Assembly: GCA_032718475.1 (NCBI GenBank)
Contig: JAUCBJ010007036.1
Coordinates: 1-64,000, forward strand
Length of the DNA: 64,000 bases
DNA from: Nemertoderma westbladi
Lineage: Eukaryota > Animalia > Xenacoelomorpha
Reading direction: 5' to 3'
Shown here: one piece after another, positions 4,601-36,000 of the stretch
Layout: each line of letters begins with the position of its first letter
Numbering within the stretch: the stretch's first letter is position 1
Notes under the pieces: model-generated
What the model was told of the DNA's origin: nothing
Databases searched by the model: none
Seen by the model: only the letters and a program-made list of their open reading frames with translations
Made by a program: the position numbers and the translations under genes

Positions 4601-7600
4601 ATCGGCAATCTGACTCGCTTACTTTTTCAAACCTTGGCAGAGTTGTAAAACATGTATGAAAATCACAATTAGAACTCATACCATGACAACGACATACAGT
4701 ACGTTTGCTCTTTTTAACAACCTGAAAAATATAAAAACTGAAGAAGTTAAGCATATAAGATAGAAATCAAGGTCTTCGTTAGATTGGTCATTTTAAATAG
4801 GATTGGCACATAATTTGTATTAATTTAATATAGTCAATAAAAAGAAACGGCAGCTGCAATGCAATATATCAAAGCTCCCGCGCTATGGAGCACATACTTT
4901 CATTCAAAAATTGAATTACAATTTTATGACAAAACGGAGACAAGGCAGTCAGTCTCCTTACCTTTTTAATTTAAGTAGTTACTGTAGACGCCTGCTCCTG
5001 CTACAATATACTAATGCTACCATGCTACCACTACTGCACTGTATAATAAATGGGCAATTACTTGGGTACGGCTGCTGTGGGCGCGGGTCGGCTACCCTTT
5101 TTGCTGCCCAGTGGTATAAAAAAAACTCTGGTAGCATATTTGTAGTTTTGTTAGTTAAATTTTGAAGTTAAATTACAAGTAAGCAAATGCTACCCGCTTA
5201 CAACCAGAAGATGATTAGACGCAGTCCCTGACATATGTACTATCGGGTGATAGCTTTCACTATTGCCTCGCGTAGTAAAATATTATTATTAATAGTTGTT
5301 CTTCATATTAAATTATTTATAGATTTGTGTAACGTCCCGCTACCTATCTCATTTAATCGCCGGTAAACATTTAAAAAGTTAGGCATAAGATTTTATAGGC
5401 ATTGTATGATTGGTATACAGTATGTACTGTATATCTGATGTTGATGTTGTATTCATATTTAAAGTCCTCATTATTAGTCTGCCAAGTTGATAGGGATTAT
5501 AAGAAGGGAATGTATTCAACAGACCATTAAATTAACAGAACCAATACAAGTCAATGATAGTATATACAACCTGATAATTATACATTATCTCATATCTAAA
5601 TCTGAGTTTCTTTTTATAATAATAACAACATTAAAATAGTACATCGTCTGACATTTAAATCGCTAGAAAAGCTTTAATTTTACTAAATTTTGAATTCGCA
5701 TTTCTGGTTGTGCGTAAATCGGACAAGACGAGACAGAGCCGAGGGAGGGGGGAAACTTGACGCAAATGCCATCTCGGCGAATTAATATCTCGTACCAATG
5801 TTAAATCATCAATTAAGGGAAAGGATCAGGTTACAATATCATGGCATTATAACCAAAACAATAAATGAAAGTTAATAGTTTACAATTTTATTTTTGAGAG
5901 TTATCAGCTGTTATTTGAGTTGATTTTCCCCTAGAGAAGGATGAATTTTCATTGAACGAAAGTCCCCCCCCCCCAAATCTGTGTATAAGAAGATCCAAGC
6001 TCAAATATTGTGTATGAATTCAGTTTGATATATAATATTTTGTACAAAATACTCACCCTTCGCCCCGCTCTCGTGTTATGTAGGTTCATTAGGGCCCGAG
6101 GTGTGATTGTCTTCCTGTCCTTGGCATCGATCCATTGTCTCGCCTTATCGGCTCCGTATCGGATATTGTCGCTACATCCGCCCCACTTCGCGTTCTCCTC
6201 GTCGCTAATCCGGGCGTTCCGAGTTTCCGGTTCTTCCGAGTTGTCCACGCACGAGCAGCCCCGGATATTCCCTTTGCTGCATTCGCGAGTGATCGCGTTC
6301 ACTATGGCCGCTGACGTTATCGCGTAAATAAAAGAAACTTCGCGACTCGCTGAAAAGTTAATAATAAAGATTGTGTCGTGGGTTGTCGGGCATAAATCTG
6401 TTATATTCGAACGGGAAACCATGGCGACTAAAGTAACAGAATAATAACCTATCCAGGTCGATTAAAACACAATAATGTATTTTTATTTTACTTTGATTGT
6501 TCGTATTATTTCCCTATTTAGGTAACGGCATAAGAAACGGTATCACTATATAAATAAAAAAAATCCCCACTGAAATCTGCTCCTTTCCGTTACTCACGAA
6601 ACGAATAAGTTATGATAAACCAGAAAGCCAGAAAGAAAAATCAGTCAGAAATCCTCAGTTTGACACTGAGAGTTTATGTATTAGTTTTGTTGTCTGCCTG
6701 GAGGTGTGGTGGGGAGGTGGGGGGGGGGGGGGGGGGGATGTGATTTCCATAACGGGAGGCGTTTATCCTTTATAATTACGTAAAATATTCAACTCTAAAA
6801 TAACTTAAATTCACCGCAGTGTTTTTGCTTCCAAAACCAAATATAATTATCACGCGTTGCTTTCATTAAGGCACAGCAATAAGATTTCATTATCACTTTC
6901 TGTGAGAAACCCCAATAGTAGCGAATAGATAATACGATTACCCACCGGTAACGAGGATATAACACATTTAGTAACAGCTGCAAAGGTTTAATACGACCCG
7001 CAATTCCATGAAAAATATCTTTCGTGTCTCAAATGCTGAGAATCTTGATGGTAAATATGTTGAAATAATAAGTTATCCGTTTCCATGGTAACTAACCGAC
7101 TTGTAGTGCACTGCGGGGTTCCGTTCCCATAGTAACTAACCCACAATGAATGCCCCCAGGGGGTCCGTTCCCATAGTAACTAACCGACACTGAGTGCCCC
7201 GAGGGGGTCCGTTCCCATAGTAACTAACCGACACTGAGTGCCCCGAGGGGATCCGTTCCCATAGTAACTAACCGACACTGAGTGCCCCGAGGGGATCTGT
7301 TCCCATAGTAACTAACCGACACTGAGTGCCCCGTGGGGGTCCGTTCCCATAGTAACTAACCGACACTGAGTGCCCCGTGGGGGTCCGTTCCCATAGTAAC
7401 TAACCGACACTGAGTGCCCCGTGGGGGTCCGTTCCCATAGTGACTAACCGACACTGAGTGCCCCGTGGGGGTCCGTTCCCATAGTAACTAATCGACACTG
7501 AGTGCCCCGTGGGGGTCCGTTCCCATAGTGACTAACCGACACTGAGTGCCCCGTGGGGGTCCGTTCCCATAGTAACTAATCGACACTGAGTGCCCCGTGG

Positions 7601-33000: not shown

Positions 33001-36000
33001 GCAGACCCACAGCAGACCCTTCTCCTGCTCCGACAGTTCGCTTAGTGAGTCACGTTGAATGATCTCCTCCCAATCCGCCTTCTACGGAAATAATGTGGGA
33101 GATAAAGCCAGTGAAATAAAGTAAGGAAGTAAAGCTATGGAAATAAAGTAAGGAATTGAAGCTATAGAAATAAAGTAAGGAAGTGAAGCTAGGGAAATAA
33201 AGAAAAAAGTTAATAAATTTATGAAAATAAATTAAACAAGGGAAAATACTAAGTAGGTAAATAAACAATACAATACATACAAATACATTTGGTTACCGTT
33301 TTGTTAGAAACAAATCAGTAATTTATTAGGAATATAAAGTAAAATGGGAAACCATCTGTAAATGAAAGAATGGCAGTGTCTCTTACAAACACACATCGCG
33401 CTACCAACTAACCATAATCGATTCATTCGGCTTCAGGTTGTACTGCTCGACCAGCGGCTCCATCCCGTGCTCCGATACTTTAGCCAACCACGCGCCGTGC
33501 TCCACCACGGAATCGTACGACGGAAAGCGAACCGGCGTCCGATGGTAGGGGAACTCGATCTCGAGACAGGTGGAACTCCCGTCCATGTTGGGGTTGGACC
33601 CGACCGCGCCCAACGGCACGATAATATCGTCCAAACCCTTGGGGACCGGCCACATGTTCAGTTGGACCTTCCCGGAGAGCAGACGCCCGGTGAAGTCGAA
33701 CAGGTTGAGGTTGCCCCAGGCGAGGATGCAATGATCCGAGGCCTTTCGTCGTCGGGTCACCGAGCAGACGGACAGACAAATCTTCGCGGCGCGGGGCAGG
33801 TCGGGGAGGTACATCTTAAACTCGAGCCATTCGTTCCACCTCGGGTTACTGAAGGGAACGCATTGACTCTCCACGTTGGAACACATTGCCTCGGAACCGT
33901 GGTAGACGCCAGCCCGCACGTAGATGTCCTTGTAGGTGTCCTTAACGTTCACGTACTTAGCGCAGATGACCTTGACGCTGAGGTTGGAGTGTTTCGGGTT
34001 GAGGTTGAGTTGGGTTAGATCTTCAGCTGGTTCGCTGTCCAATTGAGACCGCAAGCTGCTGGTGCGTCTGAGGGGATAAAGTTTAATAAATTATACAATG
34101 GAAATAAAGTAGCAATGAAATATTTATGACTTTATTCAGCAATTCTCAAGCTGTATATAAACACCTTGGTTTGCACAACGTGTTATATTTATAATATTTA
34201 CAAATAATCATTACCAAAACAAAACCTTTATCTCTAATTTATGATATTTACAACCAGAAGAAGCGGTTGAGTTAGTAACAATGGTAAGAACAATTAATTT
34301 AGAATAATCGTAGTATTAGTTACTAAAAGTAGAAACAAAATCAAACTATTGGTTTTATATTAAGTTTATTTTATTAAGTTCATATTTTGTGTTTCGTCGA
34401 TGAGCAAATTAGTGACTCAAATCGAACGCAGGTAAAAAAAGTTATTGTTGGCCGCAAGTGAAATAAAGTTTAATTTATTGTTTTGTTTAGAACACGTTTT
34501 TTTTTGGCTCACAGCCACAGCTTTAGTGCCTCTATCCTTGAATATTTCCAATGAAATTCAATTAATTTTTAAACACATTGATTGGAGTTTGCGGTCATTC
34601 TGCGTAATAAACTATTCCTTAAACACGAGAAACAAGTTACATTATATATTTAATTCATGAGCAGATAATTAATGTAAAAAAATATTGAATGGGTGAAGAG
34701 ATCACAAGAGCCCACGCCCACGCACGAACCTGATGATACTGGGAATGGTAATGTCGTCGCGAGGGAGATCGTCAATAACCTTTTCTTTCATTATCAACAT
34801 GAGGTTGGGAGTGTGGGCGTTGGACAGACAGAGTCGAATGTATTTATATTGGGTGACGGGGTAGTCGTCGGATAGAAGATACTCCTGGCACCCACAAACC
34901 TAGGAAACGGACGAGTAATAGATAGTAAAGGGAACCCGGGTAGCAATAAAAGTATACTTACAGTTCCAGTCTGAAGAGAAACCTGTTTCACAAAGGAAAT
35001 ATATAAACATAAGGCGATAATACGACTATTATTTGTAACTGTATTTTTAACTGTAATTTTATTAGGCTTCCCTGTTTGATAGTAACAACTATTGTATCGT
35101 TATTGCATCCATCACTGACTTACTTTTAGTACATAGGTTGAAGAATGTTTCTCTATGCAGGCCAGCAGTCTCTCACGCGTCATTGTGTTCTTACACTTCT
35201 TCTTTATCGCACCGGAAACTATATCGCGAGGTGTACTCATGTGGGATATAACCACGTTGTACTAGAGGGCGTAAGAAACATAAAATTAAATAAATATATA
35301 ATTACGCAGAATATAAATTGATGTATATCGTGAAACTCAATATCATAAAAATTAGGTTATTAATTGCAATTCGGAAGCAATAATTATTAAAATTATATCA
35401 CATTAAATTAAATTATAAACTAATAGTACCTGATCTCGCTTTCCGTCCGGGTTAAGGACCCAAATATTGCACGTAAACTTGGATTTGGATAGGTTATTTA
35501 TGATTTGGGCGGGAAGACTGTTGTCTTTGTGAACGTTAGGTGGGAAGTGACGCAAGGCGTTACTCATCGGTCCGTTACCAACGTCCTGTAACGTTGTCAC
35601 GCAGGTCTCGATGGCGCTGCGACGGAAATCAATGACCTCGGGGTCTTTAATCGCGTCGAATTCGTGTATCGGCATACCGATAGCCGAACCTGCAATCAAT
35701 ATAGGGGGTATTACATTATTCATGGAGTCCTCATCGGACGCAATACAGGCATCCGATAAATTTGTGGTAAGCAAGTGATACCATATATGTTTAACTATCC
35801 GATCTCGTTATATTAAACTAACTGGTCCTGTTAAACCTAACTGATCTTGTTAAACTAACTGATTATGTAAAACTAACCGATCTCAAAGTTGAGTTTCCTT
35901 TCCTCCTTGTCTCCCGGAGGTTCGAAGAGTTTGAGAACCGGTTGAAATAATCGAAGATCGCATAGTCGACGATGTTCATCGTAAAACTCCTCAACATCTG

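What the first reader, a model, noticed from the sequence alone, without database searches (positions are those of the whole stretch)
7080..35884. Window-wide pattern: tandem repeats nucleate on splice junctions
Seen: at least four of ~34 junctions in two genes have arrays with unrelated units (44, 20, 27 and 18 bp) whose terminal copy is the functional splice site. Inference: there may be a genome-wide mode of intron growth by tandem duplication at exon borders. It could be mechanistic (splicing- or R-loop-linked breaks) or selective (junction-spanning duplications are tolerated because the first site survives). The same tendency could seed exon duplications such as Wnt 4a/4b, or intron gain and sliding.
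Basis: inference. Interest (0 to 1): 0.75.

Follow-up and report, generated by a model that had tools for sequence, protein, structure and literature searches.

The report
Minisatellites copying splice donors ("mirages")
In two genes of an invertebrate animal, three tandem repeats copy an exon end plus its splice signal (up to 300 times) and a fourth repeats the end of an intron; the one spliced transcript seen uses the normal signal, so these are likely harmless examples of a repeat type already known from lancelets and humans, and the proposed genome-wide trend is untested.

Summary
The four arrays are real. They lie in a PI3K p110 gene and a Wnt gene, both on the minus strand. Three arrays (44, 20, 18 bp) cross a splice donor, and their first copy is the working site: 3 of 16 donors, 0 of 17 acceptors. 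The 27-bp array repeats only intron-side pyrimidine+AG sequence and stops at the acceptor. A spliced contig from one public run confirms all three PI3K sites; Wnt has no RNA check. This matches lancelet "mirages" and the human F7/CBS VNTRs, and this scan has noted the same thing in at least five other genomes. Enrichment depends on the null. Three of 17 intronic arrays cross a junction; 0.5 are expected under per-base placement (P about 0.01) and 1.4 under own-intron placement (P 0.14). Both tests are post hoc in a reader-chosen window, and no genome is held. The arrays did not create their introns: one host intron is shared with another animal, and none shows the exonic template that duplication-driven intron gain requires. 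Wnt 4a/4b is an old exon duplication with no linked array. Two leads remain: all 3 array donors have an immediate in-frame stop (1 of 13 others), and the 20-bp host intron looks lineage-specific.

The parts
7070..8345 (-). 44-bp minisatellite, 29 copies; unit = last 17 nt of Wnt exon 2 + first 27 nt of intron 2; first copy holds the predicted donor 8329|8328
   Evidence: 26 of 29 copies keep GT, 24 of 29 keep the exact 9-nt donor; distal copy diverged (11/17 exon part, 19/21 intron part); no RNA check
26391..32402 (-). 20-bp minisatellite, about 300 copies; unit = last 10 nt of PI3K exon 9 + first 10 nt of intron 9 (CTTATACCAG|GTGAGGTTTA); turns an intron of about 79 nt into 6,050 nt
   Evidence: 266 copies keep CAG|GTGAG; a 65-unit string recurs 2,790 nt away; X4 splices from first copy to exon 10
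33082..33202 (-). 27-bp pyrimidine-rich array (about 3.3 copies plus degenerate halves) ending at the acceptor of PI3K exon 8 (33082|33081); AG-bearing copies end 53, 80 and 107 nt upstream; the copy one unit upstream lacks AG; no exon sequence repeated
   Evidence: acceptor confirmed by X4 joint 33081-33413; length differs among DNA contigs
35800..35884 (-). 18-bp degenerate array spanning the donor of PI3K exon 3 (35878|35877); copies at +18, +36, +55 keep GTTAG but not the -1 G; a copy at +78 has lost GT
   Evidence: donor confirmed by X4; 14 nt missing in an X3 contig; intron position shared with L013
20699..49551 (-). Class I PI3K catalytic subunit gene (PIK3CA-like), 12 coding exons: 49551-49461, 48844-48741, 36040-35878, 35689-35430, 35261-35124, 34899-34730, 34067-33413, 33081-32744, 32551-32393, 26342-25898, 24189-23884, 21040-20699
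   Evidence: 1057 aa, no stop; p85B, C2, PI3Ka, kinase; best hits hemichordate p110-alpha-like, 56%; exons 3-9 and their joins to exons 2 and 10
1462..8564 (-). Wnt gene, exons 8564-8329, 6349-6057, 4721-4623 (4a), 3975-3877 (4b), 2344-2182, 1673-about 1465; first exon not located
   Evidence: 6 of 6 exon pieces hit PF00110
26343..26390 (-). 48-nt unique end of PI3K intron 9 with the acceptor; its last 16 nt match the array unit at 13/16; the 33 nt before that show no relic of the unit
21209..23669 (.). 36-bp minisatellite (68 copies) in PI3K intron 11, 214 and 168 nt from the junctions: a large array NOT on a junction (counter-example)
48511..48698 (.). 40-bp array 42 nt into PI3K intron 2, with a related array at 47445-47559; not junction-derived (counter-example)

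Best explanation
Three minisatellites copy an exon end plus its splice donor into the following intron and one copies the intron end before an acceptor; they likely arose as ordinary local tandem duplications, likely grew by slippage and unequal exchange, and likely persist because splicing keeps using the exon-adjacent site. Shown: the anatomy; local, unrelated units; use of the terminal site at the three PI3K junctions in one transcript contig; a premature stop if any other copy were used; length differences among samples in the two short arrays. Inferred: origin by misaligned repair or slippage; growth by unequal exchange (a 65-unit block recurs 2.8 kb away); choice of the most upstream donor, as in human F7; removal of mis-spliced RNA by nonsense-mediated decay. 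Selection then acts as a filter, letting donor-side arrays through more easily than acceptor-side ones, where upstream AGs would compete. The apparent crowding at junctions is partly geometry: the host introns were only about 79-745 nt before expansion.
For: Units are unrelated to each other and have no copy elsewhere in the window at 75% identity or more, apart from one 15/20 hit. The first unit is the commonest unit in the 44- and 20-bp arrays, and the far ends decay. X4 splices from the first donor at 32393 and 35878 and to the last acceptor at 33081. Use of copies 2-7 (20 bp), 2-5 (44 bp), the 3 internal GTTAG (18 bp) or the 3 upstream AGs (27 bp) always gives a premature stop. 3 of 16 donors against 0 of 17 acceptors are crossed (Fisher P 0.10). 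The nearest upstream AG in the 27-bp array is 53 nt away. Collapsed host introns are 79, 141, 253 and 745 nt; the own-intron null expects 1.1-1.4 crossings, P 0.07-0.14. The same anatomy and first-site rule are published for F7 (PMC1557585) and lancelet globin/Adh3 (PMC3087553).
Against: Tolerance alone predicts no excess over wholly intronic arrays, yet per-base placement gives 3 observed against 0.3-0.5 expected (P 0.003-0.013; donors only P 0.0004-0.002). Matching GC content does not remove this excess. Copies are not purged of donors (266 of about 300, and 24 of 29, intact). Contigs drop rare forms, so minor decoy use is not excluded, and only one transcript-like run was seen. The Wnt donor has no RNA support. 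The 20-bp host intron has an acceptor resembling the unit (13/16, P about 3e-4 under a composition null, post hoc), which simple donor duplication does not explain.
Confidence: 0.68

Rival explanations
1. There is a real, several-fold, genome-wide mutational bias: duplications nucleate at exon borders (splicing-, R-loop- or nucleosome-edge-linked breaks), and this is a main route of intron growth in this lineage.
For: 3 of 17 arrays cross against 0.49 expected (P 0.011); 3 of 7 strong arrays against 0.32 (P 0.003); the excess survives GC matching. Junction arrays are 23% of intron bases. A lancelet paper calls mirages possibly general in cephalochordates and the mechanism unclear (PMC3087553).
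Against: Not significant under the own-intron null. P 0.04 without intron 2. The window and the pattern were selected after the fact. One array supplies 81% of the junction-array bases. 13 of 16 donors and 17 of 17 acceptors show only background self-similarity. The donor-only skew fits selection better than breakage. No break- or R-loop-related evidence was obtained.
Confidence: 0.2
2. There is no enrichment at all: a repeat-rich genome with many 170-660-nt introns puts some arrays on junctions by chance, and the reader picked the window.
For: 62 TRF rows in 64 kb; own-intron P 0.14 for all 17 arrays; large arrays also sit mid-intron and between genes (36, 41, 28, 63 bp). This rival concerns only the excess and is compatible with the best explanation's mechanism.
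Against: The own-intron null conditions on part of the signal (arrays favouring short introns). Per-base nulls give P of 0.04 or less in all versions run.
Confidence: 0.35
3. The arrays create or shift introns: PI3K intron 9 was born from the duplication itself (Rogers-type tandem genomic duplication, or a target-site-like direct repeat supplying the acceptor).
For: Intron 9's position is absent from 49 of 49 related loci whose translation showed the motif. None of the gene's four introns in reference positions 533-1042 is shared with the 80 loci. The exon-end versus intron-end match is 8/10, the highest of 16 introns (next 6/10), and the acceptor matches the unit at 13/16.
Against: The intron start matches the next exon's start at only 1/10, so the intron half of the unit has no exonic template. 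The 33-nt spacer carries no unit relic (shuffle P 0.91). The other lineage-specific introns have neither arrays nor direct repeats. The 18-bp host intron is shared with L013. The loci were the best 80 of 199, which favours uninterrupted matches.
Confidence: 0.1
4. The arrays are functional: decoy splice sites titrate U1 or set expression through splicing coupled to decay.
For: Most copies keep an intact donor; all 3 array donors have an immediate in-frame stop against 1 of 13 others; human 6-16 and CBS use a second or third copy (PMC1557585 Introduction passage).
Against: Intact copies follow from recent homogenisation; the older 18-bp array has decayed donors; the arrays are length-variable among samples; only the first site is seen in the transcript contig.
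Confidence: 0.05

Closest known systems
Lancelet 'mirage' minisatellites (Adh3, globins BflGb6/BflGb9, troponin C, PGBD5). Read: PMC3087553 section 16 whole plus passages; PMC3902484 one passage. The original Adh paper (PMC117041) was not held and is known only through these.
   Same: Tandem repeats spanning exon-intron boundaries; several unrelated units of 10-72 bp in one gene; normal splicing kept; length instability; decayed cluster ends; proposed as a route to intron gain.
   Different: Not a lancelet as far as tested: the best PI3K hits are hemichordates at 56%, and no lancelet name is visible among the 120 of 368 hits listed. Here the exon-side end copy equals the commonest unit rather than being left out of homogenisation. 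One array reaches about 300 copies. Only donors are crossed. The gene has lost the widely shared intron positions.
Human F7 intron 7 37-bp VNTR, with 6-16 (IFI6), CBS intron 13, LMNB2 and PDGF intron 4. Read: PMC1557585 abstract and passages of Introduction/Results, Discussion whole.
   Same: The first monomer spans the exon-intron boundary; identical pseudo-donors follow; the most upstream site is used.
   Different: 5-26 copies there against 4-300 here; three cases in two neighbouring genes here; first-site choice is tested by minigenes there and seen in one contig here.
Intron gain by tandem genomic duplication of AGGT (Rogers model). Read: PMC3443670 passages; PMC4974935 search listing only.
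   Same: The 20-bp unit contains AG|GT and could act as both donor and acceptor; its host intron is at an unshared position.
   Different: The model needs the duplicated piece to be exonic on both sides of AGGT; here the half after GT matches the next exon at 1/10.
Internal tandem repeats altering human gene structure in segmental duplications. Read: PMC2812944 outline and Results part 1 of 2.
   Same: Minisatellites of about 30 bp at exon-intron boundaries lengthen introns.
   Different: That survey covers human paralogues; the part read does not test enrichment at splice sites against random placement.

Membership tests
Mirage / boundary-spanning minisatellite | Tandem unit contains both exon and intron sequence across a real splice junction | tested here: met
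   Met for the 44-, 20- and 18-bp arrays
Mirage / boundary-spanning minisatellite | Same feature, for the 27-bp array | tested here: not met
   Only intron-side pyrimidine+AG is repeated; junction 16-mer best match 7/16. It works like an acceptor-side case but is not filed as a member.
Mirage / boundary-spanning minisatellite | Terminal (exon-adjacent) copy is the site used; mRNA normal | tested here: met
   PI3K 20-, 18- and 27-bp sites in contig 25 of X4; one run, contigs only
Mirage / boundary-spanning minisatellite | Same feature, for the Wnt 44-bp array | tested here: inconclusive
   Only the first copy keeps the frame open and Pfam continues across; no RNA evidence obtained
Mirage / boundary-spanning minisatellite | Length polymorphism among haplotypes | tested here: inconclusive
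   18-bp: 14 nt missing in an X3 contig; 27-bp: X1 contig identical, X3 contig with 35 gap letters. The two long arrays could not be sized from contigs.
Mirage / boundary-spanning minisatellite | Somatic instability (reported for Adh3) | not testable with these tools
   Needs single-molecule reads from one individual
Intron gain by tandem genomic duplication | Intron position is new | tested here: inconclusive
   Intron 9 absent in 49 of 49 loci with the motif, a biased and partly redundant set with no close relative; intron 3 is shared with L013, so not new
Intron gain by tandem genomic duplication | Intron is a copy of flanking exon sequence on both sides of AG|GT | tested here: not met
   Intron 9: 8/10 on the acceptor side, 1/10 on the donor side; 44- and 18-bp host introns 3/10 and 0/10, 3/10 and 5/10
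   No genome held; within the window P 0.003-0.14 depending on the null

The most novel reading that the evidence does not exclude
In this lineage, whose PI3K gene has swapped nearly all widely shared introns for new ones, donor-spanning minisatellites are enriched several-fold genome-wide (roughly one donor in five to ten), are a main source of intron length, and survive mainly at donors whose GT is followed at once by an in-frame stop. This would be the first quantified rule for where 'mirages' can live, and the 20-bp array might mark a young intron whose acceptor came from the same duplicated 10-15 nt.
Probability: 0.25. Interest if true: 0.6.

Novelty: new member of a known kind. Interest (0 to 1): 0.3.

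Why it matters
As it stands, this adds three clean donor-spanning minisatellites, one of about 300 copies, to a kind known from lancelets and a handful of human genes. It shows that the first-donor rule holds against some 265 identical decoys in an invertebrate. It would matter more if the local density held genome-wide. My searches (open-licence papers and preprints only) found no paper testing enrichment of such arrays against random placement, and the lancelet paper calls their mechanism unclear. A genome where they are this common would let one separate mutational bias from selective filtering (donor versus acceptor, stop-guarded versus open donors) and test the old idea that they seed intron gain.

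Tried and rejected
Whole-genome test: no genome is held. RNA runs: none listed as RNA; X4 is on record as 'DNA?' but covers only exons and skips introns, so I read it as transcript-derived. No RNA evidence was obtained for the Wnt gene, so its 44-bp donor and the 4a/4b choice stay open. Hidden, decayed junction duplications: none beyond the known ones; 13 of 16 donors and 17 of 17 acceptors score 12/16 or less, against 2.2% of 6,314 control positions at 13/16 or more (the control left out the large arrays and the LINE). GC bias as the cause of the excess: rejected, expectations barely move. Units as dispersed mobile repeats: rejected for the four junction units; only the non-junction 40-bp unit recurs. 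Intron 9 as decayed array throughout: rejected, spacer P 0.91. Wnt 4a/4b seeded by a junction array: no support. Depth at the 20-bp array is far above flanking depth in X1-X3 (3437, 261 and 798 against about 11-30), which suggests the array exists in other samples, but contig depth is not copy number and was not used to size it. The 65-unit recurrence could also be an assembly duplication; not resolved. The automatic intron caller missed 2 of the window's 10 internal introns in range and misplaced 2, so single calls in other loci are approximate; positions near reference 116 were checked by eye. Papers PMC117041 and PMC2791625 were not held. No supplements were read; the alignments of lancelet mirages in the supplements of PMC3087553 may bear on the end-copy comparison. 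Searches of earlier scan notes for this genome, for an enrichment test and for duplicated Wnt exons returned nothing.
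Full report
Setting. The window is animal DNA with two minus-strand genes. Twelve exons from 49551 to 20699 give a 1057-residue stop-free class I PI3K catalytic subunit. The seven exons scanned hit the p85-binding, C2, PIK and kinase Pfam families; the best database relatives of exon 10 are hemichordate p110-alpha-like proteins at 56% (120 of 368 hits listed). Six exon pieces between 8564 and about 1465 all hit the Wnt family; the best relatives of exon 3 are 43-53% identical. No close relative of the organism appeared, and no genome is held. 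I mapped 16 donors and 17 acceptors.

The observation. TRF reports 62 rows in 64 kb; 17 merged arrays lie in the 16 mapped introns. Three cross a donor. The 44-bp array (29 copies) repeats the last 17 nt of Wnt exon 2 and the first 27 nt of the intron. The 20-bp array (about 300 copies, 6 kb) repeats 10 + 10 nt at PI3K exon 9. The 18-bp array (about 4 decayed copies) sits at PI3K exon 3. The 27-bp array repeats a pyrimidine run plus AG and fades into the acceptor of PI3K exon 8; it holds no exon sequence. An independent scan of all 33 junctions for a nearby copy of the junction 16-mer found these 3 donors at 13/16 or better and no acceptor. The four units are unrelated and local.

Which copy is used. 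Run X4 holds a 4072-nt contig covering only exons. It skips 6 of 6 introns inside the laid stretch at the predicted ends, and at 32393 continues into exon 10. So the first 20-bp copy, the first 18-bp copy and the last acceptor of the 27-bp array are the working sites in that sample. The run is on record as 'DNA?'; reading it as RNA is my inference from its exon-only cover, and X1-X3 show none of the joints. Contigs hide rare forms. The Wnt donor has no RNA check; only the first copy keeps the frame open. Any other copy tested in any of the four arrays yields a premature stop. DNA contigs from other samples differ in length at the 18- and 27-bp arrays.

Is it more than chance? I collapsed each array to one unit and placed seeds at random. 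Uniform per-base placement expects 0.49-0.51 crossings among 17 arrays (3 seen, P 0.011-0.013) and 0.32-0.33 among the 7 with score 80 or more (P 0.003); GC matching changes little. Leaving out the 12.7-kb intron 2 gives P 0.04 for 13 arrays. Keeping each array in its own intron expects 1.1-1.4 (P 0.07-0.14), because the hosts were only about 79, 141, 253 and 745 nt before expansion. Counting the 27-bp array with a 16-nt tolerance gives 4 seen: P 0.011 per-base, P 0.21 own-intron (17 arrays). All of this is post hoc in a window picked by a reader; the 95% interval for 3 of 16 donors is 4-46%. Large arrays also sit mid-intron (36 bp) and between genes (28, 41, 63 bp). The excess is suggestive, not established.

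How it likely works. The arrays likely began as ordinary local duplications and grew by slippage and unequal exchange: the exon-side copy equals the commonest unit, the far ends decay, and a 65-unit string recurs 2,790 nt away in the 20-bp array (mis-assembly not excluded). They are likely tolerated because the most upstream donor wins, as minigene work on human F7 showed (PMC1557585), and because errors would carry stops. Three features fit a selective filter better than a break hot-spot. Only donors are crossed (3 of 16 against 0 of 17, P 0.10). The acceptor-side array has no AG within 53 nt of the real site, and the copy one unit upstream lacks it. All 3 array donors have a stop in the codon right after the split codon, against 1 of 13 other donors (Fisher P 0.007, post hoc, confounded with intron phase). 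Tolerance alone does not predict an excess, so if the per-base excess is real something else contributes; I found no evidence on what.

Do arrays make introns or exons? A scan of metagenome contigs returned 80 of 199 confirmed PI3K-like loci. L013 carries 12 introns in reference positions 533-1001, many of which recur in other loci; the window's four introns in that range (619/2, 672/2, 828/0, 929/0) match none of the calls in the 80 loci. So this gene has turned over its introns. The 18-bp host intron is the exception: L013 has a phase-1 intron at the same codon, so that array came after its intron. For Wnt intron 2, several database proteins lose homology just before the same motif (P0020, P0022, P0024, P0027, P0029), an indirect hint of a shared exon boundary; that vertebrate Wnts have an intron there is recalled, not checked. 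The 20-bp host intron is absent from 49 of 49 loci showing the motif (about 29 of them evidently genomic by hand count, many redundant; the kept set favours uninterrupted matches). Its last 10 nt match the exon end at 8/10, the best of 16 introns, and its acceptor matches the unit at 13/16 (P about 3e-4, post hoc). But the intron start matches the next exon at 1/10 and the spacer has no relic of the unit, so the tandem-duplication model of intron gain (PMC3443670 passages) is not met; the resemblance stays unexplained. Wnt exons 4a and 4b are both 99 nt, phase 0/0 and cover the same profile positions, but share 11 of 28 aligned residues, have unalike flanks and no array: an old exon duplication, unconnected as far as can be seen.

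What is known. Tandem repeats spanning exon-intron boundaries were named 'mirages' in lancelet Adh3 and found in lancelet globin, troponin C and PGBD5 genes, with normal splicing, length instability and a proposed role in intron gain (PMC3087553 section 16; PMC3902484 passage). Human F7, 6-16, CBS, LMNB2 and PDGF have the donor-side form. Earlier notes of this scan describe the same thing in shark, ray, urchin, annelid and other genomes (AI notes, not checked, not used as support). I found no published enrichment test in six searches of the open library.

Verdict. A real cluster of a known kind of repeat: three members, plus one acceptor-side look-alike. The genome-wide claim is open and cheap to test with the assembly. 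Interest 0.3.

Noticed in passing
window 4721-4623 and 3975-3877 (-): Two 99-nt phase-0/0 Wnt exons cover the same Pfam positions (152-183), including the Cys-x-Cys-His-Gly-x-Ser hairpin that is lipidated in Wnts (role recalled). Both are open and only 39% alike: candidate mutually exclusive exons swapping a receptor-binding part. One literature search showed no such case among 20 of 709 listed. Probably more interesting than the arrays; no RNA check.
   Followed up: partly
window 20699-49551 (-), against L013 and other loci: The PI3K gene lacks all 12 intron positions that L013 has in reference positions 533-1001 and has four unshared ones; 619/2 lies 8 nt from the common 617/0 position (sliding or independent gain). 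Suggests lineage-wide intron turnover.
   Followed up: partly
window 26343-26358 (-): The acceptor of PI3K intron 9 matches the 20-bp unit at 13/16, the best of 17 acceptors (next 10/16); unexplained.
   Followed up: yes
window 7070-7113 (-): The most distal 44-bp copy differs from the working copy at 6 of 17 exon-part but 2 of 21 intron-part bases (P 0.11) and still reads as a plausible Wnt exon end; it may preserve an older exon end.
   Followed up: partly
window 28892-31682: A 65-unit variant string recurs 2,790 nt apart in the 20-bp array: a large unequal exchange or an assembly duplication.
   Followed up: partly
window 53322-55049 (+): Intronless 575-aa frame with ferric reductase, FAD- and NAD-binding domains (NADPH-oxidase-like); possibly a retrocopy.
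   Followed up: no
window 38625-40493 (-) and about 58460-59940 (-): A 622-aa reverse-transcriptase frame (LINE-type) in PI3K intron 2, and a shorter, interrupted near-copy sitting inside a 94-bp tandem array (58144-58452 and 59953-60151).
   Followed up: no
window 34448-34492: A 45-nt piece of a high-copy dispersed element in PI3K intron 6; many contigs of X1-X4 share it. Related motifs recur across the window.
   Followed up: no
window 2386-2414 and 48511-48698: Two further arrays lie 41-42 nt from a splice site without crossing it (9-bp unit with AG upstream of a Wnt acceptor; 40-bp unit after the PI3K exon-2 donor).
   Followed up: partly
L063, near the motif ending the p85-binding domain: The intron that is phase 1 in the window and in L013 is phase 2 in L063: a possible 1-nt intron slide.
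   Followed up: no
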